Shown here piece after piece: positions 8,204 through 32,068 of a stretch of 38,809 nt of DNA. The stretch is from a virus. Taxonomy: Duplodnaviria; Caudoviricetes. The stretch covers positions 1-38,809 of the IMG/VR virus record IMGVR_UViG_3300033067_002286. One strand, 5' to 3'. Both the position numbers and the translations under genes were made by a program. How positions within the stretch are numbered: the first letter of the stretch is position 1; the number at the start of each line of letters is the position of its first letter. Under the pieces are notes generated by a model, which saw nothing but the letters and a program-made list of their open reading frames with translations, did not search any database and was not told the DNA's origin.

Positions 8204-9544
8204 ATGATACCTCGTTACACTCGACCTGAGATGTCCGCGCTGTGGACCGATGAACGGCGCTATAACTTGTGGCTTGAAATCGAGTTGGCAGCGCATGAAG
8301 CGCTGGAGGCAACACCCAATAGCCCGATACCACAAGGCGCAACGGCGAAGCTGCGCGAGTCTGTTACCGAATCACAAAAGGTCTATGACTGCTTGTGCCA
8401 TGGCGCAAAGTCCCGCATCGACATGTACGAGCGTGAGACTCAACACGAGTTCGTTGCTTTTCTTCGAACTTGCGAAGAACGATACGTATGCCCGTTTCTG
8501 CACTATGGGCTTACATCCTCTGACGTACAAGACACGGCGTTTTCCTTACTGCTCCGTGACGCTACTGCTTTAATCCTTACTGGTGTACGGGTCGAGTTAT
8601 TCCCTGCGCTCCGAGCGCAAGCGGAAGCCCATCGAAATACTGTATGCATCGGCCGTACGCATGGACAGCATGCAGAGCCTACAAGTCTTGGGCTGTTGTT
8701 TCTCGGCGCGTATGAAGAGATCAAACGCGCACAGGTTCGAGTCTGGGACGCATTCAACCAACTCACCGGTAAACTGTCTGGTGCAGTCGGCGTTTACGGT
8801 GCTGGATTTCCACCAGAGACCGAAGCAGCAGCCTTAAAAGCGCTTGGACTCAAGCCAGAGTTGGTCGGAACTCAGATAGTCCCGCGTGACAGGCATGCAG
8901 CACTATTTCAAGCGCTCGCGCTGCTAGCAGCAGCTATCGAGCGGTTGTGTCTGAATATTCGGCACCTGTCGCGCAGTGAAGTAGGCGAGCTGGCCGAGGG
9001 CTTTGCGGAGGGCCAAAAAGGAAGTTCAGCAATGCCCCATAAGCGCAATCCCATCAGCGCAGAAAACTTGTGTGGCTTAGCGCGGCTTGTGCGCGGATAC
9101 GCGGATACTTCGCTGGAGAACGTCGCGCTGTGGCATGAACGTGATATTAGTCATAGCTCGGTTGAACGCGTGATAGCACCGGACATTACAGCGCTATGCG
9201 ATTATATGGTTCATCGTTGCGCAAAGCTTGTACGCGGTTTGATAGTGAATGTCGAGCGGTGCAAGCATAACCTAGAGATGGGCGATTGGCGCTGGGCCTC
9301 AGAGCGCGTCATGCTTGCACTTGTTCGTAGTGGTCTAACTCGAAGCGTAGCGCATGAGCTGGTGCAACGAACTACGGAGTTGCGCGGGTTTACATTTAAA
9401 CGACATTGTGTGTACGGAGAGATCTACGACCGACTAGGCGACCACTTGCTGAAATGCTTTGACCTCACCGATGTGTTGCGCCACATTCCAGCTATTTATG
9501 AGCGCGTATTCGGCTGCGCGATTGAGAATTCCGCTACGCAGTAA
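8204..9544 (+). CDS. purB: adenylosuccinate lyase
   Basis: MIPRY, HYGLTSSD, GRTHG, GSSAMPHKRNP (fumarate-lyase signature) and WHERDISHSSVER. Confidence 0.96.
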   Translation: MIPRYTRPEMSALWTDERRYNLWLEIELAAHEALEATPNSPIPQGATAKLRESVTESQKVYDCLCHGAKSRIDMYERETQHEFVAFLRTCEERYVCPFLHYGLTSSDVQDTAFSLLLRDATALILTGVRVELFPALRAQAEAHRNTVCIGRTHGQHAEPTSLGLLFLGAYEEIKRAQVRVWDAFNQLTGKLSGAVGVYGAGFPPETEAAALKALGLKPELVGTQIVPRDRHAALFQALALLAAAIERLCLNIRHLSRSEVGELAEGFAEGQKGSSAMPHKRNPISAENLCGLARLVRGYADTSLENVALWHERDISHSSVERVIAPDITALCDYMVHRCAKLVRGLIVNVERCKHNLEMGDWRWASERVMLALVRSGLTRSVAHELVQRTTELRGFTFKRHCVYGEIYDRLGDHLLKCFDLTDVLRHIPAIYERVFGCAIENSATQ

Positions 9545-9654
9545 CCGCGAATTCGATTACTCAATCAAGCTGGCACGGCGCTTGAAAATCCTACCTAGGC
9601 GTAAACTCGAAGCCACAAATAATGATGGCACGCTGATTGCGATGGCTTTCAGGT

Positions 9655-10074
9655 ATGACCCAATCGATCGTCAAAAAGTTCGCACTCGTTAACTCGGCTG
9701 GCCTGTTTATGGGCGGCACTCCTACCTATCCGGTATGGGGCAATATTGAAAACGCTGGCCTGTACCACAAATACGTAGGCGCTAAAGCTGCACTTCGAAT
9801 GCTTAACAGCGATCACAAGGCTACTATTCAGGAGCTCACGGTCGAGTACACTTGTGAAACTATAGAAAGCGGCACAGCGCCTATTCCCGATACCGCTGCT
9901 CAACAGATGTCTGTCATGTGTAAACGTGCGTATGCTGCGGAGGACAAATTAGCTAAGCTACAAGCCGAACTAGCCGCAGCTGTTGCCAGAGCTAATGCTG
10001 CCGAGGCAAAACTCGCTTCGATGTGCATTTCCGCCCCTGGCAATGAGCGTTTCCAGCTGCTAGAGCTTGACTAA
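9655..10074 (+). CDS. hypothetical protein with coiled coil and C-terminal RFQLLELD
   Basis: ORF with AGGT just upstream; heptad region EDKLAKLQAELAAA. Confidence 0.55.
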   Translation: MTQSIVKKFALVNSAGLFMGGTPTYPVWGNIENAGLYHKYVGAKAALRMLNSDHKATIQELTVEYTCETIESGTAPIPDTAAQQMSVMCKRAYAAEDKLAKLQAELAAAVARANAAEAKLASMCISAPGNERFQLLELD

Positions 10075-10582
10075 CCGCCGTCTGTTGAGTAGCTCGCCAC
10101 ACTTCAACGCCGAACTCGCCTAGTGTCTGCTCGATAAGCCTGTCAATAAGCTCTGCACCGCGGCGCGATTCCCAGCGCCCGCGCGTATTATAGCTTCCAC
10201 CGCGCTTAAGCAAGATGAACACAGCGCGGTGTCCATCAGCGCGCAATTGTTTGTAATAGCCCCACACTGCCTGATACACAGCGTCACGCGTTGCTTGTGG
10301 CGCATACAGGTCTACGAAGGGAACGCTCACAAGTACCGGCCTATCGGTGACAATGTAGCGTACTTTGCCAAGCAGCAGACTCTCTTCTTTTATTTGTTTG
10401 CCACAGATGTACTGCTCATCATACGCAGACACTGCGCGGCCTTCATGTGCCCAATGTTTTATGCATTCTCTGGCCATCTCTGCCGATTCGCCGCGGCACA
10501 TAAGCTCCGCCGTTGTCCGCAGCGCCGCTACGGTTTTGCCTGTATGCGGGCCACCAATGAATCCAATAATAGTGCTCTTCAT
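9992..10582 (-). CDS. P-loop NTPase/nucleotide kinase (AAA_28, NadR-kinase-like)
   Basis: GGPHTGKT Walker A; E.IK, IVTDRP and Y...GR.E motifs. Confidence 0.75.
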   Translation of the reverse strand: MKSTIIGFIGGPHTGKTVAALRTTAELMCRGESAEMARECIKHWAHEGRAVSAYDEQYICGKQIKEESLLLGKVRYIVTDRPVLVSVPFVDLYAPQATRDAVYQAVWGYYKQLRADGHRAVFILLKRGGSYNTRGRWESRRGAELIDRLIEQTLGEFGVEVWRATQQTAVSQALAAGNAHCQGRKCTSKRVLPRQH

Positions 10583-10758
10583 TTGGCAGTCCAGTATCGT
10601 ACAACTTCAGCTTGTGCCTGAGCTTTTCTAACAACATCAGCTTTCACTAACTCACCTTTTCGCCGTGCTCTGTACCAGTCTAAGTCAAGTAACTTTCCCA
10701 TATTTCGATTTCATAACACCGTCGAGCGCAGCGCAAGCGCCGATCGCTCAGATCGCAC

Positions 10759-10787
10759 TTGACAAGTGTTTCGATCGGTGCTATACT
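10759..10787 (+). promoter_or_regulatory. strong sigma70-type promoter, leaderless
   Basis: TTGACA-17-TATACT with TGn, 6 nt before ATG 10794. Confidence 0.8.
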
Positions 10788-10793
10788 GGTCCT

Positions 10794-11198
10794 ATGACCT
10801 CGTGGCTGCACCTTCAAACCAATGCTCCGGACTTCTCAACGCCGATCACCTCATATGGCTGGCCTACAGCCGTCAGAGCGCCGGATCTCACCGAGCGACA
10901 GCGCGAGTATCTAGACGAGCTTGAAATTGAGGTTGAGTTCGGCCACAACTACGGCACTATTGGAAACTCGAAGTGCTATACTGCGCACCTGCGATTCACG
11001 GACTTGCTCCCCACACAGGCGCATATTGATCCAGTATCGCTGGCGCGCCTCGATGAAGCAGAGGACTTGCCGTACATTATCGTGCTGTTGTCGAATGGGA
11101 ACCACTACATCCATGACGGTCATCATCGAGCTACGCGCGCCATGTTGCGCAACGAGTTGATTGATGCCGTAGTTGTCAACCTGGAGATGATACGATGA
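10794..11198 (+). CDS. ParB/sulfiredoxin-like N-terminal domain protein
   Basis: LLPTQ...P.IIV...G.HYIHDGHHR motif; start set by the leaderless promoter. Confidence 0.7.
   Translation: MTSWLHLQTNAPDFSTPITSYGWPTAVRAPDLTERQREYLDELEIEVEFGHNYGTIGNSKCYTAHLRFTDLLPTQAHIDPVSLARLDEAEDLPYIIVLLSNGNHYIHDGHHRATRAMLRNELIDAVVVNLEMIR
10994..11192 (+). repeat. 199-bp perfect direct repeat, copy 1
   Basis: ATTCACGGACTTGCTCCCC...CTGGAGATGATA, identical by eye to 12101-12299. Confidence 0.95.
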
Positions 11199-11434
11199 GC
11201 ATCGTATGGAAAAAGACACCGGCTGGTTTCACCGCACGCATCGCTACCGGACTGCACGACGATGCCGAGCGTATTGCGTCTGTATGGCGCACTAAGCGTG
11301 AGTCTAGGTGGCGCTGGACAGTGCGTGACGGTCACAACGCGATTCTTAGCAAGGGTACTACGGCGTCTGCAGCTGCTGCCAAAATGGAATCGGTGCGACC
11401 TTACAATAAGACTCTAGCTAGAAGGAGCAAGTAA
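11195..11434 (+). CDS. hypothetical protein
   Basis: ATGA overlap; GGAG RBS; 79 aa basic. Confidence 0.6.
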   Translation: MSIVWKKTPAGFTARIATGLHDDAERIASVWRTKRESRWRWTVRDGHNAILSKGTTASAAAAKMESVRPYNKTLARRSK

Positions 11435-11435
11435 G

Positions 11436-11792
11436 ATGAACACGATCGACCTGGACACCCTCATCGGCCCAACCTGGGCCTTTTACGGAGTAGACAACAA
11501 TTTCTTTAAGATCGACGGTTTAGTCCTCGAAGCGATGGAAGACCCCGATGACGGATACCGATCGGCATTGGCAGAAGTTCGCATTGCGAAAGACACCGAC
11601 GATTACAAGCCCACGTTTTTCACTCAGCCCGTAGCACAGGTCAAGATCAGAGAGATTGAGAACCCCGAGCGCTATGGCTGGGAGCTGGTAGACGAGGCAG
11701 AGCATATTTGGCTCCAGATTGGCACCGACTATAACGATCACTACTACCCTTCTTTTATTTTTAGCTATTTACCCAAAAACGCGGCGGGCTGA
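11436..11792 (+). CDS. hypothetical phage protein
   Basis: AAGGAG RBS; EDPDDGYRS and IGTDYNDHYYP motifs look family-conserved. Confidence 0.7.
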   Translation: MNTIDLDTLIGPTWAFYGVDNNFFKIDGLVLEAMEDPDDGYRSALAEVRIAKDTDDYKPTFFTQPVAQVKIREIENPERYGWELVDEAEHIWLQIGTDYNDHYYPSFIFSYLPKNAAG

Positions 11793-11794
11793 CC

Positions 11795-12136
11795 GTGGCC
11801 GTCGAAGTCCGAGACGTGGCGCTTGCGCACTACTCCGCCTCGTCGGTGCTCGTGCGCTTCCCGAACGGCGAGAAGGTCTGGCTGCCGCTGAGCCAGGTCA
11901 ACCAAGTCCCCGAGGCGTGGAGCATCCCGGACAGCCTAGTGTCCCGCCGCGGCAAGCACCTCCTGATCACCGACTGGATCGCCAAGCAGAAGGGCTTCAA
12001 GGTCACGCCGCGCGAGCTGGACATCGATCCGGAACGCGCGGCGGAGAAGCCAGCCGCGCCGGCGCAGACCGCTAGGGCTGAGACGGCCGACGCGTCTGCA
12101 ATTCACGGACTTGCTCCCCACACAGGCGCATATTGA
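11795..12136 (+). CDS. hypothetical protein (small beta-barrel-like; 3' end runs into repeat copy 2)
   Basis: SVLVRF..GEKVWLPLSQV...ITDWIAKQKG; markedly G/C-ending codons. Confidence 0.65.
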   Translation: MAVEVRDVALAHYSASSVLVRFPNGEKVWLPLSQVNQVPEAWSIPDSLVSRRGKHLLITDWIAKQKGFKVTPRELDIDPERAAEKPAAPAQTARAETADASAIHGLAPHTGAY

Positions 12137-12299
12137 TCCAGTATCGCTGGCGCGCCTCGATGAAGCAGAGGACTTGCCGTACATTATCGTGCTGTTGTCG
12201 AATGGGAACCACTACATCCATGACGGTCATCATCGAGCTACGCGCGCCATGTTGCGCAACGAGTTGATTGATGCCGTAGTTGTCAACCTGGAGATGATA
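12101..12299 (+). repeat. 199-bp perfect direct repeat, copy 2
   Basis: Identical to 10994-11192, offset 1107 bp. Confidence 0.95.
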
Positions 12300-12305
12300 A
12301 AGTGA
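12101..12305 (+). pseudogene. duplicated 3' half of the ParB-like gene
   Basis: Same protein sequence as the C-terminal 64 aa of 10794-11198; only a TTG start and no clear RBS. Confidence 0.55.
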
Positions 12306-12817
12306 AAAAACTTACCGTAGCTGACTATCGTAGACAGGTAGCCCAACTCAAGAACGATGTCGCCGCCCTGCGCAGCGATCTGAAGCTTGCGCTCGATCGC
12401 GAGCGCTCGAAGGATGCGCAGGCGTCGCACGACTTCTCACAGGCGCTCATGGCGCTCAATCAGCTCTTGACGGCGCTGCATCCAGGGCCTTGGAGTCCCG
12501 GCGTTGTGTTGTCGTACCTTGAGCCCGAGCAGAGAGATTACCGAGCTTGCTCGGTATGCGTTGAGACGCCGCGGGGAATTAGTCCGCTCCCGATGGGCTA
12601 CCTCAGCGTCTGCAGCTGCATGCGCGAGAGCCCGCGCTGGTATATTTCGCTTACCAAGTTCGTGGCCAATAACACAGCAATACCGACACGCGTTATCCTT
12701 TTCAAAGGCCGCTTCGAGACACCGCGCGCTGCTGTGAAGGCTGCGGCGGAGTTCCTGCTGCCCAAGAACCACAGCGCGCTAGTTGAGCAGCTTCGAAAGG
12801 CAGCGGAAAAGCTATGA
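12302..12817 (+). CDS. hypothetical protein, N-terminal coiled coil and CxxC..CxC
   Basis: GTG start with GGAG RBS supplied by the repeat end. Confidence 0.65.
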   Translation: MKKLTVADYRRQVAQLKNDVAALRSDLKLALDRERSKDAQASHDFSQALMALNQLLTALHPGPWSPGVVLSYLEPEQRDYRACSVCVETPRGISPLPMGYLSVCSCMRESPRWYISLTKFVANNTAIPTRVILFKGRFETPRAAVKAAAEFLLPKNHSALVEQLRKAAEKL

Positions 12818-13236
12818 AAGCCCACGAGTACTACAGCCGCGCGATGCTGCTTGCAGCCGATCGCACAATGTCAGTTCGCTGCCGTTCCATGGCTGAGCTC
12901 AGCGCCGGTTGGACTGTGGACGTGTCGCCACTTCCAGCGCATCGCTGCATTTCCGAACGCTTGACGCAGCCTGAAGGGAAGCAAGTCAATCAGTCGATGG
13001 CGCTGTTGCTCGGCAAGGTGCCAGTTATCATTGCTGGCACCTCGATAGTGCTTGACACGATGCCGAGCAACACGCCGGATGTGTTGACTGTCGAACACGC
13101 GCGCCTGTGGCAGTACATGAGCAGTCGGTTGATTTCACAGCCCGCTGGACTGCTTCAGTTTCAAATGGAGCTCGCGATATTGCTCGAAGAGCTTGCGTCG
13201 CCGTCCAAGCCACGCCTGCAACTGGTGCCAGCATGA
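12814..13236 (+). CDS. hypothetical protein
   Basis: ATGA overlaps at both ends. Confidence 0.6.
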   Translation: MKAHEYYSRAMLLAADRTMSVRCRSMAELSAGWTVDVSPLPAHRCISERLTQPEGKQVNQSMALLLGKVPVIIAGTSIVLDTMPSNTPDVLTVEHARLWQYMSSRLISQPAGLLQFQMELAILLEELASPSKPRLQLVPA

Positions 13237-13766
13237 GAGCCAAACAGCTAATCGACGCGCTGCGTAGCCAGCTTACGCAGGAACTGCAAGCGAAAACCGG
13301 TTGGGGTTGCAATGAGGTGCTGCAAGCATTCGAGCGCGCAGCTGTAACGGCGCTGGGAGAGCTGGTCGAACTGCCAAAGCCGCTGGCCGGCGCGCCGCCT
13401 GATCACAAGTTGTGCTACGTCGAGGGCTACTGCGCTTACTTTACCAACAAGCCTCTCGCAGAACAATGGGGCGACGATTGGAATGATGCGCCGTACGAGC
13501 ACAATGCTGGCACACCGTATGAAGATGTCCCTGGACAGATTTTCAAAGTCCAGTTCATCTGCGACACTTTAGTCACTCCTGACTACGAACAAAGCAATAC
13601 CCCGTGGTCTGTTGAGCAGATCAATGCAGGCGCGATGCCGTGGCTACGTCCTAACCCTTGGCAGAAAGAATGCCAAGTGTTCATCCAAGCGGGCTGTTCT
13701 GTTGAAGAGTTTGTAGCGGCCATTCGCAAAGCCGGCGGCGAAGTTTTCTACAAGCCGTATGGCTGA
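13233..13766 (+). CDS. conserved phage hypothetical protein (WGDDWNDAPYEHNAG motif)
   Basis: KLCYV...AYFT....QWGDDWNDAPYEHNAG; ATGA overlap start. Confidence 0.7.
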   Translation: MRAKQLIDALRSQLTQELQAKTGWGCNEVLQAFERAAVTALGELVELPKPLAGAPPDHKLCYVEGYCAYFTNKPLAEQWGDDWNDAPYEHNAGTPYEDVPGQIFKVQFICDTLVTPDYEQSNTPWSVEQINAGAMPWLRPNPWQKECQVFIQAGCSVEEFVAAIRKAGGEVFYKPYG

Positions 13767-21859: not shown

Positions 21860-21863
21860 GTTT

Positions 21864-21936
21864 GCTGGGTTAGCTCAGTTGGTAGAGCAGCTGCCTTGTA
21901 AGCAGCAGGTCAGGTGTTCGAATCGCCTACCCAGCA
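21864..21936 (+). tRNA. trnT: tRNA-Thr (anticodon UGU), CCA not encoded
   Basis: Full cloverleaf: GCTGGGT/ACCCAGC acceptor stem, GCTC/GAGC D-stem, GCTGC-CT TGT AA-GCAGC anticodon arm, TTCGAAT T-loop. Confidence 0.95.
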
Positions 21937-21981
21937 TCGGCGCAAGCCGTGTTGACAACAAATAACAAGGAGAACGTTACC

Positions 21982-22316: not shown

Positions 22317-22916
22317 ATGGAAAAGAAACATCAGGGCTACCACGGAGCTTGGAACGATAACAACGCGCGTTCCGAGCGAGTGGCCGATGACTTGTACCCG
22401 ACGCCAGCTGAAGCGACGCAATGCTTGCTACGACGCGTGAAATTCAACGGCGCTATTTGGGAGTGCGCGGCTGGCTTGGGTCACATCAGCTGGGAACTCA
22501 AGCAAGCTGGTTACGAGTACATAAGCACAGATCTGTGCGCGGCGCAATACAAACACGGCGAAACGCTTGATTTTCTGCAGGCAGACAAAGCGCTTGCACC
22601 AAATATCGTAACCAATCCGCCGTACAAGCTGCTACGCAAGTTCATTCGTAAAGCGCTTACGCTGCCCGGCATTGATACTGTAGCGTTCTTCATTCCGTAT
22701 CCGGCTATCGCGTATGTCGGTATTCACAAGCTATTTGAAGAACTCGGCCACCCAACGCTTATTCTTGCTATGGTGCCGAACTTCACTATCTGGATGGGTG
22801 CGGAGCGCGGCTGGCAACAGTCATTCTTTAAGCACTGTTGGCTTGTGTGGGATCGTAGCGAACCGAAGCGTTCTAGTAGTTTATTTGAGCTGCGTGATTG
22901 GCGTGTAGTAAAATAG
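22317..22916 (+). CDS. phage DNA amino-methyltransferase (m6A/m4C type)
   Basis: DLYPTP, WECAAGLGHI (SAM-binding) and IVTNPPY catalytic motif. Confidence 0.85.
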   Translation: MEKKHQGYHGAWNDNNARSERVADDLYPTPAEATQCLLRRVKFNGAIWECAAGLGHISWELKQAGYEYISTDLCAAQYKHGETLDFLQADKALAPNIVTNPPYKLLRKFIRKALTLPGIDTVAFFIPYPAIAYVGIHKLFEELGHPTLILAMVPNFTIWMGAERGWQQSFFKHCWLVWDRSEPKRSSSLFELRDWRVVK

Positions 22917-22930
22917 CCGTAGGAGACACG

Positions 22931-23317
22931 ATGTACTTAGCACTTCTTTTGTCACCGGAATCCGAAGCTGAGCTACGGCGTCATGCATTAGACGCGCCAG
23001 CTAACTTGCACTTGACGGTTATCCATAGCAAAGAAACACGCGAGTTGGCACTTCCTTTGCCTTCCGTGACACTTCCAATTATCGGTCAAGGGGTAAGTAC
23101 CGATTCTTTTGGCCCGCCCACAAAGCGCGTGAAGGTGCTTAAAATCAATAGTGACCCTTTTTGGGAGCTGCGCCGCCAAGCCGAGGCGATTCTGCATAAG
23201 CGCTACATTCCGTGGTCTACACAATGGAACTTCTCACCACACCTGACACTAGGTAAAGGTGGGTACAGCGGCAGCCTTCCTGTTGCACTTACCTTCGACC
23301 GGCTGGAATGGCGATGA
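22931..23317 (+). CDS. 2H phosphoesterase, Acb1 (T4 57B)-like
   Basis: Two HxT motifs, LHLTVIHS and PHLTL; AGGAG RBS; 128 aa. Confidence 0.75.
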   Translation: MYLALLLSPESEAELRRHALDAPANLHLTVIHSKETRELALPLPSVTLPIIGQGVSTDSFGPPTKRVKVLKINSDPFWELRRQAEAILHKRYIPWSTQWNFSPHLTLGKGGYSGSLPVALTFDRLEWR

Positions 23318-23781: not shown

Positions 23782-26145
23782 ATGGGTCATCAGCTTAGTT
23801 TTCTATCATCGCTGAGCCCCGATGAGCCGCTGCTATCATATGTAGTACTGCGCAGTGACGAGCGCTGGAGCGCTGCTCTTCAAGAGCTAGACACAGTCGG
23901 CTGGGTATCGCTGGATACCGAGTTCTGGCAAGACTCAGATTTGCTGCGCGCTGCCAAGCTGTCTGGACGCGATCTGCCGAAACCACCAGATTGGGACCCA
24001 TGGAGCTGTCGTCTAAGATTGCTTCAAATAGGTCTGCCGTCCGGACTGGTCATTGTCGCCGACTTCGGCCTTGAAAAGCTTCCTATCAACGCGCGCTGGG
24101 ATGAATCGACGCCGAATGCGGACTTGCTCGCTATTCTACAGCGCGTGCTCTGCAGTTACGAAGTGCCGGTATTTGGTCAAGCGCTGGGTACTGAAGCGCT
24201 CATACTGCGGCGGCATTTCGGGCTCAGCATTCGACGGCCACGCGATACGATGCTTGCGTCTCAAGTCATCTGGGCCGGCGTCGGTAGCAAAGAATGGGTG
24301 TGGACTGACCACGGCCGCGTAAAGCGCGATCGGATGCGTCACACTTTGCAGGCTATTGGCGCGCGTGTCGGTATCGAGTTCGACAAAACCGAGCAAAGCA
24401 GCGACTGGAGCTCACCGAAGCTAAGCAATAAACAAATAAACTACGCCGCAAAGGATGTACACCGCGACACACTAGTTGAAACATGGTCACGCTTGGCGAA
24501 GCTGGCCAAAAAAGACGGCGTATGGGAATCGGTCCTTATCGAATGTGACGCAGCGCCGGCATTCTGGGAGATAGAATGGCGCGGCATGTCGTTCGATCAA
24601 GCCGCAACGCAAAAGCTCGCCGATGACTATGGCCGTGTTGCTGATCAGTGTTTTGCTCAGCTCGCGTCAGTATTACCGCCGGGCACAATACTCGAAGGCC
24701 CAGGCAGTGCTGCAAGTCTTCCTTTGGCCCTCACCAAATATATAAACCCAGACGGCGATGTGACTTGGTGGCGCAAAGGTGCGGAAGTTGCAGCACTGTC
24801 GTCTATGACTACGAATCAAGCGTGGGCAAAGGGCTATTCGGAAGAGCGCGTCTGCTTCTATCGCTGGGAACAGACGATACAGAAACGCAAGACTGTACGT
24901 GAGGGTTGGCTACTCACTCCGGAAGAGGCTGAGCAACAGCGCTTCAAGTTAGTTCCGCAGACTGGCGAGGCTGAGCTATCGCCCTTCGACACCGATCCTG
25001 CAGTCGTGGCGCTGCTTGAAGCGCGTTCAGCGCGCAGTGTTGAAGGAGTTCTGCGCAAGCGCATCAAGAACTCATGGCCGGACCCAGAAATGCCCGCGCG
25101 CGTAGCTGCTCGCTGCCGTTATTGGCAGATAAGCGGCGGCGAGGATGACGCAGGCGCTGGTATGGGGCGCTCCAGCAGTAGCAAACCCTTTAACGCGCAG
25201 AATCTGACGGCATGGCCGCTTGGCGAGAAGCGCCACAAAGAACTCAAGCTTCCGAATGCGCGCAGTACAGCCCGGCCACCAGTCGGCCGCGGTATGGGTG
25301 TAGGAGACTTTTCTCAAGCGCACCTGCGATTCGCTACTGAGATGTCGCAAGATGCTGGCATGTTGGAGGACTTCAATGCCGGACGTGATGCGCATATCCG
25401 CCTTGCCTGCGAAATAGCAAAAGCTCAAGGCGTCGAAGCGGATTTCTACGAGTGGTGCCGCATTTATCAGAGCGGCGACAAAGCGCATCCGGTATTCGGT
25501 ACTATAAAGGAGAAACGCCAGCCAGCCAAAGTAGGTAACTATACATGCGTATGCCTCGGCGGTGTTGCAACTATGGCTATGTCTGCAGCGACAGCGGTTG
25601 AGCCCATACACCTACCGGACGAGATCTGGGAACTGACACGCAAGGCTTGGCGCGAGACGAACCACGAGCTGTACGCGTTTATTAAGGGCCAAGTCAAGAA
25701 AGCCGATCGCAGCAATCACGAATTTGGCGAATACGGCGTTTACGGCGAAGTGTGGAACTGTACTCACAATCGCCGGTTGTTCTTACTCAAGGAATGGAAC
25801 GTCCCGCAGTGGGAAGACGCCGTCGGGCGCTGGTCTGTTCGTGGCACTGACACCAGCGCCGCTATGTGGCAAATGTCAGAGGCTAATGCACTCAAGATCG
25901 CTTTGGCCCTCTTTCTGAAGGACTGTGACGATCATCCTGAATGGGAAGCGTTTCCCATCAACGCCGTACACGATGAGATAGACTTCGAATTCAAGTGGAA
26001 TATTCAGTATGAGGCCGAAGTAGCGTGGTCGGTTTATGATGCTATGGGCGAAGGTATGCGCCGCGCTGGTATTAAGTCCTTGCCAGTGCGTGCGCCGGAT
26101 GATACGCCGCAGAAACTCTTAGTGCAGAGTTGGGCAGACAAATAA
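23782..26145 (+). CDS. family A DNA polymerase with 3'-5' exonuclease, divergent active site
   Basis: Exo motifs LDTE, DTMLA and YAAKD; pol motifs GRSSS..NAQN, DFSQAHLR, RQPAKVGNY and VHDEI. Confidence 0.92.
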   Translation: MGHQLSFLSSLSPDEPLLSYVVLRSDERWSAALQELDTVGWVSLDTEFWQDSDLLRAAKLSGRDLPKPPDWDPWSCRLRLLQIGLPSGLVIVADFGLEKLPINARWDESTPNADLLAILQRVLCSYEVPVFGQALGTEALILRRHFGLSIRRPRDTMLASQVIWAGVGSKEWVWTDHGRVKRDRMRHTLQAIGARVGIEFDKTEQSSDWSSPKLSNKQINYAAKDVHRDTLVETWSRLAKLAKKDGVWESVLIECDAAPAFWEIEWRGMSFDQAATQKLADDYGRVADQCFAQLASVLPPGTILEGPGSAASLPLALTKYINPDGDVTWWRKGAEVAALSSMTTNQAWAKGYSEERVCFYRWEQTIQKRKTVREGWLLTPEEAEQQRFKLVPQTGEAELSPFDTDPAVVALLEARSARSVEGVLRKRIKNSWPDPEMPARVAARCRYWQISGGEDDAGAGMGRSSSSKPFNAQNLTAWPLGEKRHKELKLPNARSTARPPVGRGMGVGDFSQAHLRFATEMSQDAGMLEDFNAGRDAHIRLACEIAKAQGVEADFYEWCRIYQSGDKAHPVFGTIKEKRQPAKVGNYTCVCLGGVATMAMSAATAVEPIHLPDEIWELTRKAWRETNHELYAFIKGQVKKADRSNHEFGEYGVYGEVWNCTHNRRLFLLKEWNVPQWEDAVGRWSVRGTDTSAAMWQMSEANALKIALALFLKDCDDHPEWEAFPINAVHDEIDFEFKWNIQYEAEVAWSVYDAMGEGMRRAGIKSLPVRAPDDTPQKLLVQSWADK

Positions 26146-26146
26146 G

Positions 26147-26175: not shown

Positions 26176-26200
26176 GGGTTGTCAATTAATAGGAGCCGTC

Positions 26201-27901
26201 ATGACCCAGCCGGTATCGTCCAAAGGAATCTATTCTGACAAAGCCAAGCGTCACTACCTCACTGCCGATCTGCCCGCAGAGCTCCAGCAGCTCTGGACAG
26301 ATGCGCGCCACTGGCGCAGCGTCAAGGGCAATGAAAAAGTGTGGTGGCATAGCCGAATGCCCGGCGACGCTAGTTCACCGCTGCTGAACTTCAAATACCC
26401 AATTGGAGCAAAGCTGTCCGACGACAGAGCCAAGTTCAGCGCTTCTAAAAACACTATGCTGGCTTGCTGGCAGCGCCTTAAGGCCAAGACCAAGCCGGCT
26501 GTCATTCCTCCGGCTGCCACTGCGCCGCTGCCTGCTAATACGACTGTGAGTCAGGGGCAGCCCGTCACTTCTCCCGCGCCGACACCGGCGCTTGACGCGG
26601 CGCGCAAGCACAATCTAATTGGTCCGCGTGTGAGCAGTACTGAGTATATGTGTCTGTGTCCCTGGCGTGCAGAGCATAAGACCGGTGGACAGCAGAACGG
26701 CATCCACGATCAAAGCACACAGGTCGGACCGAATAGCTTTCACTGCCGGCATGGCTCGTGCCAGGGCAAGCGCTACGCGGCTGAGTTCCTGGCGGCGCTG
26801 AATCCACCGGAAGTGCCGAAGGTAAGCGCGGCGACGCAGGTGATTTTAGTCATCGACAACAGCATCAGCATGAGGGAAAGCAACAAGCACGCTGCAGCGC
26901 GCAAGCAGATTCAGCTTATCTGCGATCAGCTGCGCAACAATATGCCGCAGTGGGCAGTTAAAGTGTTGTTCTTTGGCCGTAGCGTATCATATGCGTTTAC
27001 CGGCGAAGCGAAGTTGCTGCCACTGCTTCATGAACGTTATCACCCGAATGAGGGCGCAACGCGGCTGTACGATGCGGTGGGGACGGCAGCCGTGGCGGCG
27101 CTTGGTGTCAGCATCCCGTCGCTGATCTATTTGATCACTGATGGCGAACCGGCCGGATACGTAATGACCGCTATTGCGTCCCATCGTTCCATCGCTGCGG
27201 CGCGGGTCAAAGAGGCGCTTGACTCCAAGCGTGTCACAATGATTTGTGTTGGTCCGCCGACTGCGACGGCGTTCTTCGAGTCCTGTGGTATTCCCGGCGG
27301 CGTAGATGGCTGCATTCGAAGCTGGGACGGCTACGACGCAAAGGATCTGGACAAGATCACCGGACAGGTGAGCGAAGGGCTCAAGTCCTACGCTGCAGCG
27401 CGCGAAGCTGGCGAGACGCAGATAAAGAAGTTCTTCGTTGACGGCCGAAAGCTGGAAGCGCGCTTGCATGAGCTCATCGACATCACGGCGCTGTGTAAGG
27501 TGCTGCGCGTTGACCGCGAATGCGTACTGCAGCCATTCGTTGAAGATAGCGGCCACAAGTTCGTCCCCGGCGCGAACTTCTACCCACTCACCAAGAAAGA
27601 AACGCTGCGGCCGAACCGCGCAATTCTGGTACGGCCGAAGCTTGGGCATCCCATGCCTTCATTAGTGGTCAACAACATTCCCACACGACGTATTTTCTCT
27701 GGTCCGAATGTGCGCGAAGTGCTCGGACTGCCGACAGACCGCGAAGTGACAGTTGAGCCCGGTGATATGGGCAACTTGGAGCTGTTCCTTGAGAGCTCCA
27801 GCCATAACCGCCTGCTGGTGCGCGCCACTGATCTTATCGTTCGTCTCGACGTGCAGCCGCAAGCTCACACCTGGGCCAAGCCGCAGCCGCAGTCGAACTA
27901 G
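26201..27901 (+). CDS. multidomain protein: N-terminal domain, primase-type Zn finger, vWA domain, C-terminal domain
   Basis: CPWRAEH...FHCRHGSC; MIDAS motifs VIDNSISM, TRLYDAVG and ITDGE; C-terminal FYPLTKKE..LGLP..SSSHNR. Confidence 0.75.
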   Translation: MTQPVSSKGIYSDKAKRHYLTADLPAELQQLWTDARHWRSVKGNEKVWWHSRMPGDASSPLLNFKYPIGAKLSDDRAKFSASKNTMLACWQRLKAKTKPAVIPPAATAPLPANTTVSQGQPVTSPAPTPALDAARKHNLIGPRVSSTEYMCLCPWRAEHKTGGQQNGIHDQSTQVGPNSFHCRHGSCQGKRYAAEFLAALNPPEVPKVSAATQVILVIDNSISMRESNKHAAARKQIQLICDQLRNNMPQWAVKVLFFGRSVSYAFTGEAKLLPLLHERYHPNEGATRLYDAVGTAAVAALGVSIPSLIYLITDGEPAGYVMTAIASHRSIAAARVKEALDSKRVTMICVGPPTATAFFESCGIPGGVDGCIRSWDGYDAKDLDKITGQVSEGLKSYAAAREAGETQIKKFFVDGRKLEARLHELIDITALCKVLRVDRECVLQPFVEDSGHKFVPGANFYPLTKKETLRPNRAILVRPKLGHPMPSLVVNNIPTRRIFSGPNVREVLGLPTDREVTVEPGDMGNLELFLESSSHNRLLVRATDLIVRLDVQPQAHTWAKPQPQSN

Positions 27902-27928
27902 ACACCGCCTGAGCGTCTCTGTTACGAT
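27899..27928 (+). promoter_or_regulatory. putative promoter of the purZ operon
   Basis: TAGACA-18-TACGAT with TGn. Confidence 0.45.
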
Positions 27929-27975
27929 CTTCTTATCCCTTCCGTTCTCTGCAACACCTTTCAAAGGCAGCTTCA

Positions 27976-29667
27976 ATGCGAAATCCCTTGATTGTCGTTC
28001 TGTCTGGCCCTATCGCGGTCGGCAAGTCCACTCTGTCTGCAGCGCTTGTTGAGCGCTTCGGTTTTTACTGCGTCAAAACTCGTTCGCTGCTCAAGCAGCT
28101 CGCAAACGATCGCGGCTCTGATCAGTTGACGCGCGCTGAGCTCCAGCACGGCGGCGCTGACCTAGATAAGCGCACCGACGGCGCATGGATTGCGGACGCG
28201 CTGAATAAGTCTGGTATGTGCAACGCAGTGCCAATTATCGTCGATTCGGTTCGTACTGCTGAGCAGATCGCCCACATTCGTCGCATGAACGGTAGTGTTA
28301 CCGGCGCTGTAAATGTAAAACACGTGCACATCACTGCGTCGCATGCTATTTTGGAAGAGCGCTTTATCATACGTCGTCGTGAGGCGGTTCAGCACGAAAA
28401 GCCTTGTTTAGATGGAACGGGAGGTGGAAGTAACCCGCTGACATTTGATCGGGCCATGATTGGTGAGCCTATTGATGAGCTCGATGGCACGTTGGAGCGC
28501 ATCGCCGACGTTTGCATAGACACTACGCGTCTGCAGCCAGAAGATATCGCCGTGCGCGTCGCCGCTGCGCTCGGGCTATACAATAACCACGATCGGCTGG
28601 TAGACGTGCTGGTGGGCGGCCAGTGGGGCTCCGAGGGCAAAGGACAAGTCAGCGGCTATCTTGCGCCGGAATATGACGTACTCGTGCGCGTCGGCGGACC
28701 AAACGCTGGTCACAAGGTCTACGAGCTGCCTAAGCCGTACACTTTCTATCATCTGCCCAGCGGAACGCGATGCAATCGCCGCGCACAGATCGTACTTGGC
28801 CCCGGCGCTGTGCTCGGACTGCCGAAGCTGATGGAGGAAATCTCTGACTGCGCGCTATCTGGCAGCGGTCGGCTGTTCATCGATCCTCAGGCTATGGTGA
28901 TCGACGCAGCGGACGTGAATATGGAAAACCACGTCGGCAGTGCTGTGGCGGCCATCGGCAGCACAGGTCAAGGTGTTGGTGCGGCGACAGCGCGCAAGGC
29001 GCTGCGCAGCATGGCCGCGTCTGAGTTCGGTTGTCCGGTGCAGCTCGCTCGCGACGTTCCGGGGCTAAAAGAATTTATTCGGCCGACTCTCGAAGTACTC
29101 GATCGCGCTTTCGCGGCTGGTAAGCGCGTGTTCCTTGAAGGCACGCAGGGTACTTCGCTGTCGCTTCATCACGGCGCGTATCCTTACGTCACTTCGCGCG
29201 ATACTACGGTGTCTGGCACGCTGTCCGACGCCGGTATTTCTCCACTGCGTGTGCGCAAGTCGATCATGGTGTGCCGCAGCTATCCCATCCGTGTAAAGTC
29301 CGTTGAAAACACCAGCGGGCCAATGGGACAGGAGATCGACTTCCAGGAAGTTGCGCGTCGCTCGGGTTTTGACGGCGACACGCTGGTACAGCTGGAGAAA
29401 ACCACAACGACCAAGCGCAATCGCCGCGTTGCTGAGTTCAATTGGGCGGAGTTCCGCCGCAGCGTGTCGCTCAACGGTCCGACGGATATTGCGCTGACCT
29501 TTGCCGACTATTATGGCAAGGATAACCAGCAGGCGCGGCGTTATGAGCAGCTCAATGCCGAAGCGCAGCGCCAGATTGAGGCGATGGAGCAAGTCAGCGG
29601 TGCGCCGGTGTCGCTCATTGCTACGCGCTTTCATTTCCGCTCGATCGTCGATCGGCGTCACTGGTAA
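27976..29667 (+). CDS. purZ: P-loop NMP-kinase domain fused to PurZ/PurZ0-like adenylosuccinate synthetase
   Basis: N-terminal SGPIAVGKST and IIVDSVR. C-terminal GGQWGSEGKG (Ser for PurA Asp13), NAGH, IGSTGQGVG, EGTQG..LSL, YPYVTSRD, YPIRV, TTTTKRNRR and TFAD. Confidence 0.85.
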   Translation: MRNPLIVVLSGPIAVGKSTLSAALVERFGFYCVKTRSLLKQLANDRGSDQLTRAELQHGGADLDKRTDGAWIADALNKSGMCNAVPIIVDSVRTAEQIAHIRRMNGSVTGAVNVKHVHITASHAILEERFIIRRREAVQHEKPCLDGTGGGSNPLTFDRAMIGEPIDELDGTLERIADVCIDTTRLQPEDIAVRVAAALGLYNNHDRLVDVLVGGQWGSEGKGQVSGYLAPEYDVLVRVGGPNAGHKVYELPKPYTFYHLPSGTRCNRRAQIVLGPGAVLGLPKLMEEISDCALSGSGRLFIDPQAMVIDAADVNMENHVGSAVAAIGSTGQGVGAATARKALRSMAASEFGCPVQLARDVPGLKEFIRPTLEVLDRAFAAGKRVFLEGTQGTSLSLHHGAYPYVTSRDTTVSGTLSDAGISPLRVRKSIMVCRSYPIRVKSVENTSGPMGQEIDFQEVARRSGFDGDTLVQLEKTTTTKRNRRVAEFNWAEFRRSVSLNGPTDIALTFADYYGKDNQQARRYEQLNAEAQRQIEAMEQVSGAPVSLIATRFHFRSIVDRRHW

Positions 29668-29767
29668 CAACGGCTTTGCACGGGAGACAGGCGCTGCGGT
29701 AGGACAGGCTGATATAGCTGGCGGACTGCCGCAGCGTCTCCCGTGTAAAGAGAAATGGCAAGAAACT

Positions 29768-30196
29768 ATGTTGAACGGATGGGCAAAGAAGATTGCAGCA
29801 GTGCTTGATATTCCCGAACATATCCGTGCGGAGATTATGGGCGTAGACTGTCCAGCACATTTAACGATCGGTGCAATGCAGCGCGCCTTGAACGGCGAAA
29901 ATGTTGCGCCTTGGTTGGGACCAACTTGGGCCAAACTATATGCATCAGCAATCGCCAAACTTACAGTTCATAACTGGCGCATTGAAAGCAGTCTGGCACA
30001 TGAGACGCGCGAGAGCTGCAACGGGCATTGCCAGGCAACTTGTCGGCGCGATAAGCGTACAGGACTGCTGATTGCGTTCGACGCGGAAGGTCAAAAGCCG
30101 CGCCAAGATGCTTACTGGTTTAATACAACTCGTTCGGAACTGCAAGGAGAGTCTGGTACAGTTCAAGACTTAACGCCGCTTGGTGAAATATGGTAG
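29768..30196 (+). CDS. hypothetical protein
   Basis: ORF between purZ and the kinase genes; overlaps the next start. Confidence 0.55.
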   Translation: MLNGWAKKIAAVLDIPEHIRAEIMGVDCPAHLTIGAMQRALNGENVAPWLGPTWAKLYASAIAKLTVHNWRIESSLAHETRESCNGHCQATCRRDKRTGLLIAFDAEGQKPRQDAYWFNTTRSELQGESGTVQDLTPLGEIW

Positions 30197-30798
30197 CACA
30201 GCCATGTATTTATGTCTGCGGCGCAGAGGGAACAGGTAAAACCGATTGGACAGGACGCATTGCGCGCAATTACAAGCTGCTAATGCTTCCAGAGACTGCG
30301 CGCATTGAGCTTGATTGCCGTGGGGGTTCCTTTGGCCCTCTACTGAGCAATCCGACGGCTATGAATGATTATCAACGCGCGGTGTTTGACCGACAGATCG
30401 CGCTAGAGCTCGCAACGACGCCAGCCTATGTCGCCGACGGGCATTGTTTGGAAAACCTCGCTTATGCCTCTGAGAACGCGCAATGCGTAGCCGACTTGTA
30501 TCAACAATTCGTGCGCGACTTGGACAGTTACCAGCGTGAATTCGAAGTGCTTACACGCCTGCGCAACGGTGTTGTGTTTTTCCTTCGACCGCACCCAAGC
30601 ATGAACGCGCAAGATGGAATCCGTATTGGCGCGGACTACGTAGCCAAGCAGCGCATCGATGCAAAGCTTGAGCTGCTGATGCAGTTGTGGGGCGTTCAGT
30701 ATGTGTCTATAGAAACACCGAATGCAGCGCGGCGTGAAGAACTCATCGACTACGTACTTGCGGCGAAAGGATTTAAGAAATGCCCGTCCATATCCTAA
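30190..30798 (+). CDS. P-loop nucleotide kinase-like (AAA_28/NadR/Ttd14-like)
   Basis: GAEGTGKT, LPETAR, VADG and DGIR motifs. Confidence 0.75.
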   Translation: MVAQPCIYVCGAEGTGKTDWTGRIARNYKLLMLPETARIELDCRGGSFGPLLSNPTAMNDYQRAVFDRQIALELATTPAYVADGHCLENLAYASENAQCVADLYQQFVRDLDSYQREFEVLTRLRNGVVFFLRPHPSMNAQDGIRIGADYVAKQRIDAKLELLMQLWGVQYVSIETPNAARREELIDYVLAAKGFKKCPSIS

Positions 30799-31364
30799 CA
30801 GCGTCATGGAAAGGTTCGCTTACCTGGGCCGGCGAGCGTGAAGCGTGGCTCAAGCAGCACTTCGATCTGGACTACAACGATATCACGTTCAGCCATGCCA
30901 AACACAAGGTGCACGGCGACATCTTCATCGACGACAAGCCGAGTTCGCTTGAGCTATGGCAGGCGCGGCATCCAAACGGTGTAGCACTGTTGTGGAAGGA
31001 CGTGTGGAATAGGCCGCATCACAGTAACTGGCCCGGCGCTGACAACTGGCCACACATGATAGAAGAGATCACCTTTCAAGGATACCAGCGCACCAATCGA
31101 TTGAGTGAACTCGAAATTCTTCTTGACTGTGACGGTCCGCTGTCGGACTTCTTTGGCGCAGCTATGAGCTGGCTATACCGCGAGTATTTGGACTACGCCG
31201 CGATGAAATGGCAACCGCAGCCCGAGCATTGGGCGGTTCAAGATTCACTTCCGCCGGAGCGCGCAGCGGCGTTGAATGCGGCTTGTATGCAGCCAGGCTT
31301 TTGCGCTTCACTTGGACTTGTCGAAGGCGCACAAGCAGCAGTTAAATACCTAAGGAGTTTGTGA
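30780..31364 (+). CDS. 5'(3')-deoxyribonucleotidase (NT5C-type HAD), circularly permuted
   Basis: ILTAS, WLKQHF, K...GDIFIDD and WN come first; motif I LLDCDG and the cap (PGFCASL..VEGA) follow in the C-terminal half. Confidence 0.8.
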   Translation: MPVHILTASWKGSLTWAGEREAWLKQHFDLDYNDITFSHAKHKVHGDIFIDDKPSSLELWQARHPNGVALLWKDVWNRPHHSNWPGADNWPHMIEEITFQGYQRTNRLSELEILLDCDGPLSDFFGAAMSWLYREYLDYAAMKWQPQPEHWAVQDSLPPERAAALNAACMQPGFCASLGLVEGAQAAVKYLRSL

Positions 31365-32068
31365 TGTTGGCATACAACCCTAAGCGGCGGTGCACCGCGG
31401 ACGGTGTACCAATGAACCGACTTATCATTGGCATTGGCGGACTGAAGCGTAGCGGCAAGGATGAGCTGGCACGAGCGATCATCAGTCACGCACGACAGAA
31501 TGGCGTCATTCTGTGGAACATTGCTTTTGCTGACGCGCTCCGTGATACCGCCGCTGCGGCTTACGGCGTTCCGGTGAATGAGTTCAGCAGCGACCAGCTC
31601 AAAGATGAAGTACACCCGGCGTGGGGTATTACGCGACGGCAGATGCTTATCAATCTCGGCGTACCTGCAACGCTGCTTCCGCCAGCTGGTGCTGATCATT
31701 GGGTCCGCCGTTGGCAGCAAAGCCTTTCAGATCTTCCCATGAACACTAGCGGCGTTATCGCGGCGGACATTCGGCGCACGAATGAGGCCGCGGCGGTGCA
31801 CGACATGGGCGGCGTGAATATTCTGGTGCGGCGTCCAGGCATCACGTGGAACGGTCACATCACTGAGAAATTGTCTTGGCTTGCATCGACGGCGCGCGGC
31901 AGTTATAATTATGGAGATGCTGCATTGCATGAAATGGGCTCTGCCGGGCAACGATCAACCCGTCCGGTGTTTGACCTGGTTATCGATAATGATGGCAGCG
32001 TTTCAGACCTTCATGCAAAAGCATCGCAGTTGTACAAGGCGGTGCTTGATGTCAGGAGACACTGTTAA
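31361..32068 (+). CDS. deoxynucleoside monophosphate kinase (T4 gp1/T5 Dnk-like)
   Basis: IGIGGLKRSGKD, FADALR, T.RQML..LG, DIRRTNEA and DLVIDNDG. Confidence 0.88.
   Translation: MMLAYNPKRRCTADGVPMNRLIIGIGGLKRSGKDELARAIISHARQNGVILWNIAFADALRDTAAAAYGVPVNEFSSDQLKDEVHPAWGITRRQMLINLGVPATLLPPAGADHWVRRWQQSLSDLPMNTSGVIAADIRRTNEAAAVHDMGGVNILVRRPGITWNGHITEKLSWLASTARGSYNYGDAALHEMGSAGQRSTRPVFDLVIDNDGSVSDLHAKASQLYKAVLDVRRHC

What the first reader, a model, noticed from the sequence alone, without database searches (positions are those of the whole stretch)
8204..32068. Self-contained modified-purine (probably 2-aminoadenine, Z) DNA pathway: kinase-PurZ + phage PurB + kinases + nucleotidase + rewired PolA
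Seen: a PurZ-type synthetase (27976-29667), a full PurB (8204-9544), a dNMP kinase, two more P-loop kinases, a HAD deoxynucleotidase and a divergent PolA, all in one phage. Established: in characterised Z-phages PurZ makes dSMP from dGMP, and the host's PurB, Gmk and Ndk finish dZTP, with DatZ/MazZ and sometimes DpoZ as phage accessories. Inference: this phage carries the downstream steps itself, giving a host-independent route to dZTP or a related unknown purine. No HD-domain DatZ or MazG-like MazZ is visible in the window, so dA exclusion may depend on the nucleotidase or polymerase instead.
Basis: partly seen in the sequence, partly recalled or inferred. Interest (0 to 1): 0.92.

Follow-up and report, generated by a model that had tools for sequence, protein, structure and literature searches.

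The report
Third PurZ-like clade, phage and cellular
This phage fragment carries a kinase-fused enzyme that likely starts synthesis of the unusual DNA base 2-aminoadenine (Z), and the same enzyme family is common in bacteria and archaea beside a gene predicted to encode a DNA ADP-ribosylating toxin, which hints that cells may also use Z nucleotides, possibly in anti-phage defence.

Summary
The genes are there: intact PurB (8204-9544), a kinase-fused synthetase (27976-29667), two more kinases, a circularly permuted HAD nucleotidase and a divergent PolA. The synthetase has the guanine-accepting residues of PurZ/PurZ0 (Ser for Asp13, Thr for Gly298) and a GTP-type site, so it likely makes the Z precursor. 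A phage PurB beside PurZ0 is not new: Ghobes, Archimedes and Hiyaa have it. The PolA is not DpoZ, and its altered motifs and both stand-alone kinases also occur in a relative whose held 75 kb lack purA/purB. The contig is about 32% complete, so missing DatZ/MazZ says little. What is new is the synthetase's family: a third Ser-type clade, sister to PurZ+PurZ0, fused to an adenylate-kinase-like domain. It is mostly cellular: 76 of 80 GTDB loci have a DarT-fold gene (DUF7002) directly downstream, 66 of 80 an IrrE-macrodomain gene upstream, and 32 of 32 genomes tested keep a normal PurA. Three other phages pair it with an NDT-MazG fusion resembling DmtZ-DutZ. Z in this phage's DNA is likely (about 0.55) but unproven.

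The parts
27976..29667 (+). Kinase-fused Ser-type adenylosuccinate-synthetase homologue (PurZ0-like active site). Residues 1-~200 adenylate-kinase-like NMP-kinase fold; ~205-563 synthetase
   Evidence: Pfam/NCBIfam; residue mapping S219, E220, T476, R481, D511; family profile hits AdkA-like 3lw7 E 1.4e-6 and adenylate kinases; model and Foldseek; tree
8204..9544 (+). Adenylosuccinate lyase PurB, intact, 18 kb from the synthetase
   Evidence: TIGR00928 over cut-off; 1c3u E 1e-103; nearest named relatives Myxococcales/Polyangia/Deltaproteobacteria at about 48-51%
30190..30798 (+). AAA_28 P-loop kinase-like protein
   Evidence: PF13521 E 6e-11; also in relative G001 at 34%
30780..31364 (+). Circularly permuted NT5C-type HAD 5'-deoxynucleotidase; candidate dAMP remover (untested)
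   Evidence: bridged by contigs of other runs
31361..32068 (+). Deoxynucleoside monophosphate kinase
   Evidence: PF21448, phrog_139 E 3e-28; also in G001 at 32%
23782..26145 (+). Divergent family A DNA polymerase; motif A DFSQAH (His for the usual Glu), motif B lacks the aromatic residue at B4; not DpoZ
   Evidence: adjacent to the synthetase in relatives L106/L142
22317..22916 (+). Amino (N6-adenine/N4-cytosine type, NPPY) DNA methyltransferase; bears on whether adenine is fully replaced
   Evidence: phrog_799 E 2e-35; Atlas neighbours
4198..4635 (+). Degenerate dUTPase-fold protein without the catalytic motifs; considered and rejected as DutZ
   Evidence: Atlas 0.94 to dUTPase clusters; alignment with DutZ lacks the motif-3 Asp and the C-terminal motif; syntenic copy in G001

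Best explanation
The phage encodes a kinase-fused synthetase that likely condenses dGMP with aspartate, its own PurB likely cleaves the product to dZMP, and the resulting dZTP is likely built into phage DNA in place of some or all adenine. Steps: (1) shown: Ser219 for the catalytic Asp13 and Thr476 for Gly298, as in PurZ/PurZ0, with an Asp511 GTP-type site; inferred: dGMP + Asp + GTP gives dSMP (about 0.75 that a 2-aminoadenine nucleotide is made). (2) Shown: intact PurB; inferred: dSMP to dZMP, as host PurB does in known Z phages. (3) Shown: adenylate-kinase-like domain in the same chain and a dNMP kinase nearby; inferred: dZMP to dZDP; the last step is probably left to the host. (4) Inferred: the neighbouring PolA incorporates dZTP; dATP exclusion rests on the permuted HAD nucleotidase or on genes in the missing two thirds of the genome. 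Full replacement is less likely (about 0.3) than Z in DNA at any level (about 0.55). The enzyme is not from the PurZ or PurZ0 lineages but from a third clade whose usual home is a cellular IrrE-macrodomain / kinase-synthetase / DarT-like operon.
For: Residues: S219, P437, V440, T476 match S-2L S23, P238, V241, T273 and phiVC8 S14, P233, T262, positions tied to dGMP binding in PMC8342488 (sections 7, 8) and 10.1101/2025.10.22.683976 (passages). Across 205 family rows Ser is 205/205, Thr 194/205, Asp511 205/205, whereas 32 of 32 housekeeping PurA controls have Asp and Gly. Tree: kinase-fused clade 99/97, sister to PurZ+PurZ0 (96/86), Asp-type PurA outside (100/99). Context: synthetase next to PolA in L106/L142, and identical longest-contig lengths for PolA and synthetase homologues in three more pairs (36350, 19444, 9759). 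Of 7 viral loci where the clade stands without its cellular partners, 4 have a PolA within 10 kb (L083, L085, L087, L091; L085 and L087 have the same layout) and 3 (L083, L084, L089) have an NDT-MazG fusion nearby, which parallels the DmtZ-DutZ fusion of PurZ0 phages (PMC12884076, passages). Among 80 viral loci with this MazG subfamily the fusion was seen in 2, both beside the kinase-synthetase. PurB with a Ser-type synthetase is the pattern of Ghobes, Archimedes and Hiyaa.
Against: No member of this clade has been assayed. R481 keeps the PurA Arg303 that contacts the ribose 2'-OH (Lys or Leu in the five known Z-phage enzymes aligned; Arg in 170 of 205 family rows), so GMP is a possible substrate. 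The closest solved structure by sequence and fold is archaeal PurA (5k7x/2d7u), not PurZ. No dATPase or dGMP-supplying enzyme was found in the window, and none of 7 viral carriers, 2 of them at least 90% complete, has an HD_3 or dUTPase match. None of 16 other viral records, including those 7, has PurB. The PolA is unrelated to DpoZ and its QAH motif is in 30 of 35 homologues examined and in G001, where no synthetase was found. An amino-methyltransferase is present. Most of the clade lives in cells whose genomes are presumably canonical, so the enzyme's ordinary job is not wholesale base replacement.
Confidence: 0.55

Rival explanations
1. Orphan counter-defence gene. The phage holds the middle gene of a host DarT-like defence operon and uses it, with PurB, to make or drain a purine nucleotide that disarms that system or another nucleotide-based defence; little or no Z enters the genome.
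For: The clade is tied to a DarT-fold gene in cells, while the window and 7 of 9 viral loci lack both partners. Phages are known to carry orphan parts of DarTG systems (PMC11257639, abstract). The window also has an Acb2/Tad1-like gene and a 2H-phosphoesterase-like gene.
Against: The known orphan is the antitoxin, not a biosynthetic gene. Position beside DNA polymerase, dNMP kinase and, in three other phages, an NDT-MazG fusion points to DNA precursor supply.
Confidence: 0.2
2. The enzyme acts on GMP or another purine ribonucleotide and yields ribo-Z nucleotides or a different N6-substituted purine, not dZTP for DNA.
For: Arg303 equivalent kept (R481); the fused kinase is adenylate-kinase-like; the fold is nearest archaeal PurA.
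Against: V440 matches S-2L V241, proposed to clash with the 2'-OH, although E. coli PurA also has Val there; 30 of 205 family rows have Lys as in PurZ0; neighbours are deoxy-specific enzymes.
Confidence: 0.15
3. Ordinary auxiliary purA/purB pair that boosts AMP and dATP supply from IMP.
For: Best sequence and structure hits are archaeal PurA. Relative G001 has a ribonucleotide-reductase-like gene end and a dUTPase around the slot where the window has purB, so the slot holds nucleotide-supply genes.
Against: Asp13 is replaced by Ser in the window and in all 205 family rows, against Asp in 32 of 32 housekeeping PurA. All 32 cellular carriers tested keep a separate normal PurA.
Confidence: 0.07

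Closest known systems
PurZ0 pathway of Gordonia phages Archimedes/Ghobes, Streptomyces Hiyaa, Arthrobacter Wayne (PurZ0, PDB 7VF6; DutZ, DmtZ, DpoZ-1; PurB annotated in some)
   Same: Ser-Glu at the Asp13 loop, Thr at the aspartate loop, Asp333-type nucleotide site, phage-encoded PurB.
   Different: Separate clade (AU test rejects window+PurZ0, p 0.0026); N-terminal NMP-kinase fusion; Arg303 kept; no DutZ, DmtZ or Wayne-like DpoZ in the held sequence; mostly cellular family.
PurZ-MazZ-DatZ of cyanophage S-2L and vibriophage phiVC8
   Same: Ser at Asp13, Thr273/Thr262 equivalent, Phe and Tyr at phiVC8 F295/Y298.
   Different: Glu not Thr after the Ser; Thr508/Asp511 instead of the adenine-reading Asn/Asn(Gln); below the NF038379 cut-off; no DatZ or MazZ found.
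Short archaeal PurA (Pyrococcus horikoshii, 5K7X/2D7U)
   Same: Best sequence and fold match of the synthetase domain; same short architecture, Arg303 and Asp333 equivalents.
   Different: Asp13 to Ser, Gly298 to Thr, kinase fusion; accessory second paralogue rather than housekeeping gene.
DarTG1/DarTG2 DNA ADP-ribosylating toxin-antitoxin defence systems (for the cellular operon, not the window)
   Same: DUF7002 model matches DarT1 best (Foldseek E 1.8e-5; VIA Z 10.5, rmsd 3.2, 161 aligned), DarT2 tied (Z 9.7); invariant His15 and Glu189; the partner has a DarG-like macrodomain (PADLOC E 1e-7 to 3e-9).
   Different: Three genes, with a purine synthetase-kinase in the middle and an IrrE-type HExxH peptidase fused to the macrodomain; activity and target base untested.

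Membership tests
PurZ (S-2L/phiVC8 clade) | Ser at E. coli PurA Asp13 | tested here: met
   S219
PurZ (S-2L/phiVC8 clade) | ATP-type site (Asn294/Asn297 in phiVC8; Asn305/Gln308 in S-2L) and GST motif | tested here: not met
   T508, D511, E220
PurZ (S-2L/phiVC8 clade) | NF038379 score over cut-off | tested here: not met
   203 vs 300 bits
PurZ0 | GSE motif, Thr at aspartate loop, Asp333-type site | tested here: met
   S219-E220, T476, D511 match Ghobes, Archimedes and Hiyaa
PurZ0 | Falls in the PurZ0 phage clade | tested here: not met
   separate clade 99/97; AU p 0.0026
PurZ0 | dutZ in the genome (98 of 98 PurZ0 genomes in PMC12884076) | tested here: inconclusive
   only a catalytically degenerate dUTPase fold found; contig 32% complete
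PurZ/PurZ0 | Converts dGMP + Asp to dSMP in vitro | not testable with these tools
   needs enzyme assay
Z-genome phage | dZ replaces dA in virion DNA | not testable with these tools
   composition and palindrome tests did not separate known Z phages from controls
Z-genome phage | dATP-removing enzyme (DatZ, DutZ, DUF550/MazZ, DUF5664) | tested here: inconclusive
   none for HD_3, MazG, DUF550 or NDT; DUF5664 not searched on its own; contig incomplete, and the Pfam MazG search missed real MazG domains elsewhere (vs 126)
DpoZ (phiVC8-like or Wayne-like) | Close similarity to either DpoZ clade and Phe at motif B4 | tested here: not met
   BLAST bits 22-38 to the four reference polymerases; Cys at B4 (PMC10201439 passages)
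PurA | Catalytic Asp13 and Gly298 | tested here: not met
PurB (TIGR00928) | Model score over cut-off and intact catalytic motifs | tested here: met
   363.9 vs 326.2 bits; motifs
DarT-type DNA ADP-ribosyltransferase (DUF7002 of the cellular operon) | DarT fold with conserved His and Glu | tested here: met
DarT-type DNA ADP-ribosyltransferase (DUF7002 of the cellular operon) | ADP-ribosylates a base in ssDNA and protects against phage | not testable with these tools
   needs assay

The most novel reading that the evidence does not exclude
Bacteria and archaea make 2-aminoadenine nucleotides themselves as part of an undescribed defence system: the kinase-synthetase turns dGMP into dZ nucleotides that enter replicating phage DNA, the DarT1-like transferase ADP-ribosylates the guanine-like 2-amino group of Z, and the IrrE-macrodomain protein keeps the host safe. 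Several phage lineages, this one included, hold the synthetase without its toxin and use it for Z-DNA, which would be a third, independent route to Z genomes and a link between Z-DNA and cellular immunity.
Probability: 0.25. Interest if true: 0.92.

Novelty: new variant of a known kind. Interest (0 to 1): 0.72.

Why it matters
Current accounts treat Ser-type synthetases as phage enzymes with a single origin and two branches, PurZ and PurZ0 (PMC12884076, passages). A third branch with its own kinase, held by hundreds of bacterial and archaeal species beside a DarT-like gene, would mean that cells may make Z nucleotides too. It offers culturable sources for direct tests, and it warns that a Ser at Asp13 alone does not mark a Z genome. 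For the phage it points to a new Z-phage lineage, probably of myxobacterial hosts (inferred from PurB), with a polymerase unrelated to DpoZ and, in other carriers, a new NDT-MazG accessory enzyme.

Tried and rejected
dUTPase-fold gene 4198-4635 as DutZ: rejected; catalytic motifs are absent and a syntenic copy lies in G001. PolA motif changes as Z adaptation: not supported; lineage-wide, and 0 of 5 viral records with related polymerases have PF00709 (only G001 showed the QAH motif, and it is a fragment ending inside PolA). Palindrome avoidance and A/T-run depletion as Z signatures: uninformative; known Z phages also avoid A-containing sites, and A/T-run depletion also appears in cellular high-GC controls. 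Direction of transfer: a single clade of all viral kinase-fused rows (with two contigs of unknown context) is not rejected (AU p 0.087), so cell-to-phage capture is not established; the first, larger tree finished only in quick mode. Single-sequence scans of viral contigs found no useful relatives. The DUF7002 and DUF550 searches of viral records had no ringing control, so their blanks carry no weight; the absence of DUF7002 rests on my own profile over the loci. L341 and L316 looked like NDT-MazG fusions by coverage but are stand-alone MazG genes. No RNA holder listed. No complex prediction was run. The PurZ0 paper (Tong et al. 2023) is not held; it and its supplements, and the 2021 Science papers, may already list kinase-fused bacterial homologues. 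No supplementary files were opened.
Full report
Observation. The window is the whole held record, a linear viral contig of 38,809 bases that CheckV rates 32% complete. ORF calling and family scans of 59 proteins and of 20 proteins in NCBIfam confirm the genes named. PurB at 8204-9544 passes TIGR00928 (363.9 vs 326.2 bits) with intact motifs. 27976-29667 is a P-loop domain fused to an adenylosuccinate-synthetase domain that passes neither the PurZ model (203 vs 300) nor the archaeal PurA model (268 vs 368). It is followed by an AAA_28 kinase, an NT5C HAD nucleotidase and a dNMP kinase, and preceded by a VWA protein and a family A polymerase. The HAD gene is circularly permuted. Contigs from 4 of 4 runs of four other studies (labelled riverine, wastewater and aquaculture; 4 of 20 listed runs laid) cover both regions at mostly 85-99% identity and bridge membrane gene-purB, VWA gene-synthetase and the permuted HAD.

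Active site. Aligned with E. coli PurA, phiVC8 and S-2L PurZ and the PurZ0 of Ghobes, Archimedes and Hiyaa (sequences; alignment), the window enzyme has S219 for Asp13, E220, P437, V440, T476 for Gly298, R481 for Arg303 and T508-F509-D511-Y512 at the triphosphate site. PMC8342488 (sections 7 and 8 read) places S23, T273 and V241 at the dGMP and aspartate sites and says Arg303 contacts the 2'-OH of IMP in PurA; 10.1101/2025.10.22.683976 (abstract, section 7, passages) names S14, F12 and T262 as accommodating the 2-amino group. The site is therefore PurZ0-like with one PurA-like residue. That PurZ0 uses GTP is recalled from Tong et al. 2023, which is not held; one sentence of PMC12884076 gives the ATP/GTP preferences in the opposite order to its own introduction. 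In 205 family rows Ser is invariant, Thr476 is in 194, Asp511 in 205 and Arg481 in 170 (Lys in 30); 32 of 32 housekeeping controls have Asp and Gly. Caveats: the GTDB loci were found with two patterns of which one contains the Ser, the locus rows had to contain a further short motif, and some rows are duplicates; the 120 protein rows were not selected on the Ser. The N-terminal domain resembles AdkA-like and adenylate kinases with an intact P-loop.

Family. The protein search gave 4609 hits among 7997 scored; 119 of the best 120 are full-length fusions (one is partial), mostly at 51-58% identity, several on multi-megabase contigs. A GTDB scan confirmed 589 of 600 pattern matches, estimated about 990 in the collection, and kept the best 80, spread over Acidobacteriota, Myxococcota, Chloroflexota, Planctomycetota, Pseudomonadota, Nitrososphaerota and others. 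With profiles built from these loci, DUF7002 lies within the locus in 80 of 80 and directly downstream on the same strand in 76; an IrrE-peptidase/macrodomain gene is within the locus in 69 and directly upstream in 66; both in 64. In metagenome contigs, many short, DUF7002 is in 56 of 80. In plasmids, all 11 records with a near-full-length synthetase have DUF7002 next to it, out of 13 near-full-length DUF7002 records; one sits among an AAA ATPase-UvrD pair, an integrase and VapBC. All 32 cellular genomes tested (32 of the 80) also hold a separate normal PurA. A model of DUF7002 (pLDDT 97) matches DarT1 best (Foldseek E 1.8e-5; VIA Z 10.5, rmsd 3.2 over 161) with DarT2 chains tied or just below (Z 9.7-8.5); the sequence profile gave only E 0.11 to DarT1. 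His15 and Glu189 are invariant in 57 rows. [quoted passage not shown] Z carries a 2-amino group as guanine does, which is the basis of the novel case; that step is inference only.

Phylogeny. A 31-row maximum-likelihood tree (LG+G4; 31 of the 62 rows) gives Asp-type PurA apart (100/99), PurZ and PurZ0 each 100/100 and together 96/86, and the kinase-fused enzymes as their sister clade (99/97); the window's four-row lineage (100/99) lies among cellular rows, with moderate support for the branches between. The AU test rejects window+PurZ0 (p 0.0026) but not a single viral clade (p 0.087), so the direction of transfer is open.

Viral carriers. A viral scan gave 17 loci, 9 of them in this clade (L083-L091; L086 is cut before the kinase part). 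Two carry the whole cellular operon; seven, like the window, lack both partners in the locus. Four of the seven have a PolA within 10 kb and three have an NDT-MazG fusion close by, the same pairing of activities as the DmtZ-DutZ fusion of PurZ0 phages (PMC12884076: abstract, first of seven parts, passages). Of 80 viral loci with this MazG subfamily, 77 have no synthetase within the locus, and the fusion was seen in only 2, both beside the kinase-synthetase. This is the best indirect sign that the clade serves Z-DNA in phages. Against it, none of the seven has HD_3, dUTPase or PurB matches, and the window has no NDT-MazG.

PurB with PurZ0 is annotated in Ghobes, Archimedes and Hiyaa, and PurB hits occur in 6 Gordonia and 5 Streptomyces records of 38 phage records matched; earlier notes of this scan say the same. 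The window PurB is nearest to an unnamed group at 53-58% and to named Myxococcales, Polyangia and Deltaproteobacteria at about 48-51%, which suggests capture from a myxobacterial host (inference). The PolA has DFSQAH in motif A and Cys at motif B4, is not close to either DpoZ, and shares the motif with 30 of 35 homologues examined (E. coli motif numbering recalled; PMC10201439 passages). It is adjacent to the synthetase in relatives at 51% identity. Relative G001 (75 kb, 61% complete; capsid 53%, PolA 42%) has the same PolA motif, the AAA_28 kinase and the dNMP kinase but no purA or purB match; it has a reductase-like gene end and a canonical dUTPase around the purB slot and a PAPS-reductase/ParB pair upstream of the kinase. 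It ends inside PolA, so a synthetase could be missing from view. The dUTPase-fold gene at 4198-4635 lacks the catalytic motifs and is not DutZ. An NPPY methyltransferase argues mildly against full replacement. Composition tests were uninformative.

Literature on the cellular operon. 'DUF7002' is in 0 papers of the library; searches combining adenylosuccinate synthetase or PurZ with defence, DarT, macrodomain or IrrE terms and PurZ0 or PurB terms listed nothing that describes it, judged from the listings. Subscription papers, including the PurZ0 paper, were not available, so prior mention cannot be excluded.

Verdict. The phage likely makes dZ nucleotides with a synthetase from a third, kinase-fused clade (Z in DNA about 0.55, full replacement about 0.3). 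It works like PurZ0 but is not a member of the PurZ0 or PurZ clades. The self-contained-pathway point is largely known; the clade and its DarT-linked cellular operon are the reason for the score of 0.72.

Noticed in passing
L003:6555-10317 and most of L003-L082; L394:8992-12642: Conserved cellular operon IrrE-peptidase/macrodomain, kinase-synthetase, DUF7002 (DarT fold) in bacteria and archaea; candidate undescribed defence or toxin-antitoxin system.
   Followed up: partly
L089:2677-3381, L083:11814-12722, L084:2144-2929: NDT-MazG fusion beside the kinase-synthetase in three phages; possible DmtZ-MazZ analogue.
   Followed up: partly
window 30780-31364: Naturally circularly permuted NT5C-type HAD nucleotidase; the DxD half is C-terminal.
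   Followed up: partly
L169:3655-4950 (also L172, L173, L176, L179, L181, L184): Variant cellular context: the synthetase is followed by a different unknown 255-aa gene and a convergent MazG/PRA-PH-like gene instead of DUF7002.
   Followed up: no
window 23782-26145; P0121-P0150; L186: A phage PolA lineage with His in place of the motif A Glu and no aromatic residue at motif B4; fidelity and sugar selectivity unknown.
   Followed up: partly
window 4198-4635; L306:3875-4483: Catalytically degenerate dUTPase-fold protein conserved in the head module of this phage lineage.
   Followed up: partly
window 4632-4853 and 22898-23317: Acb2/Tad1-like hairpin protein (PF24729 over cut-off) and a 2H-phosphoesterase-like gene (two HxT motifs, weak LigT hit): possible anti-defence genes.
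   Followed up: no
window 10994-11192 and 12101-12299: Exact 199-base direct repeat duplicating the end of a ParB-like (IHDGHHR) gene.
   Followed up: no
L304:3-2465 (G001): PAPS-reductase/ParB (IbrAB-like, name recalled) genes lie upstream of the AAA_28 kinase in the relative, where the window has the synthetase; possibly an exchangeable DNA-modification slot.
   Followed up: partly
L100 (Gordonia phage Ghobes, 23 kb): Extreme avoidance of the ApT dinucleotide (odds ratio 0.05), not shared by Archimedes (1.12).
   Followed up: no
window, whole: GGCGCC is absent (0 vs about 25 expected); CTCGAG and GACGTC are also absent. One tRNA-Thr at 21863-21938.
   Followed up: no
L037:7989-13363: An archaeal genome with two kinase-synthetase copies facing each other around one DUF7002 gene.
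   Followed up: no
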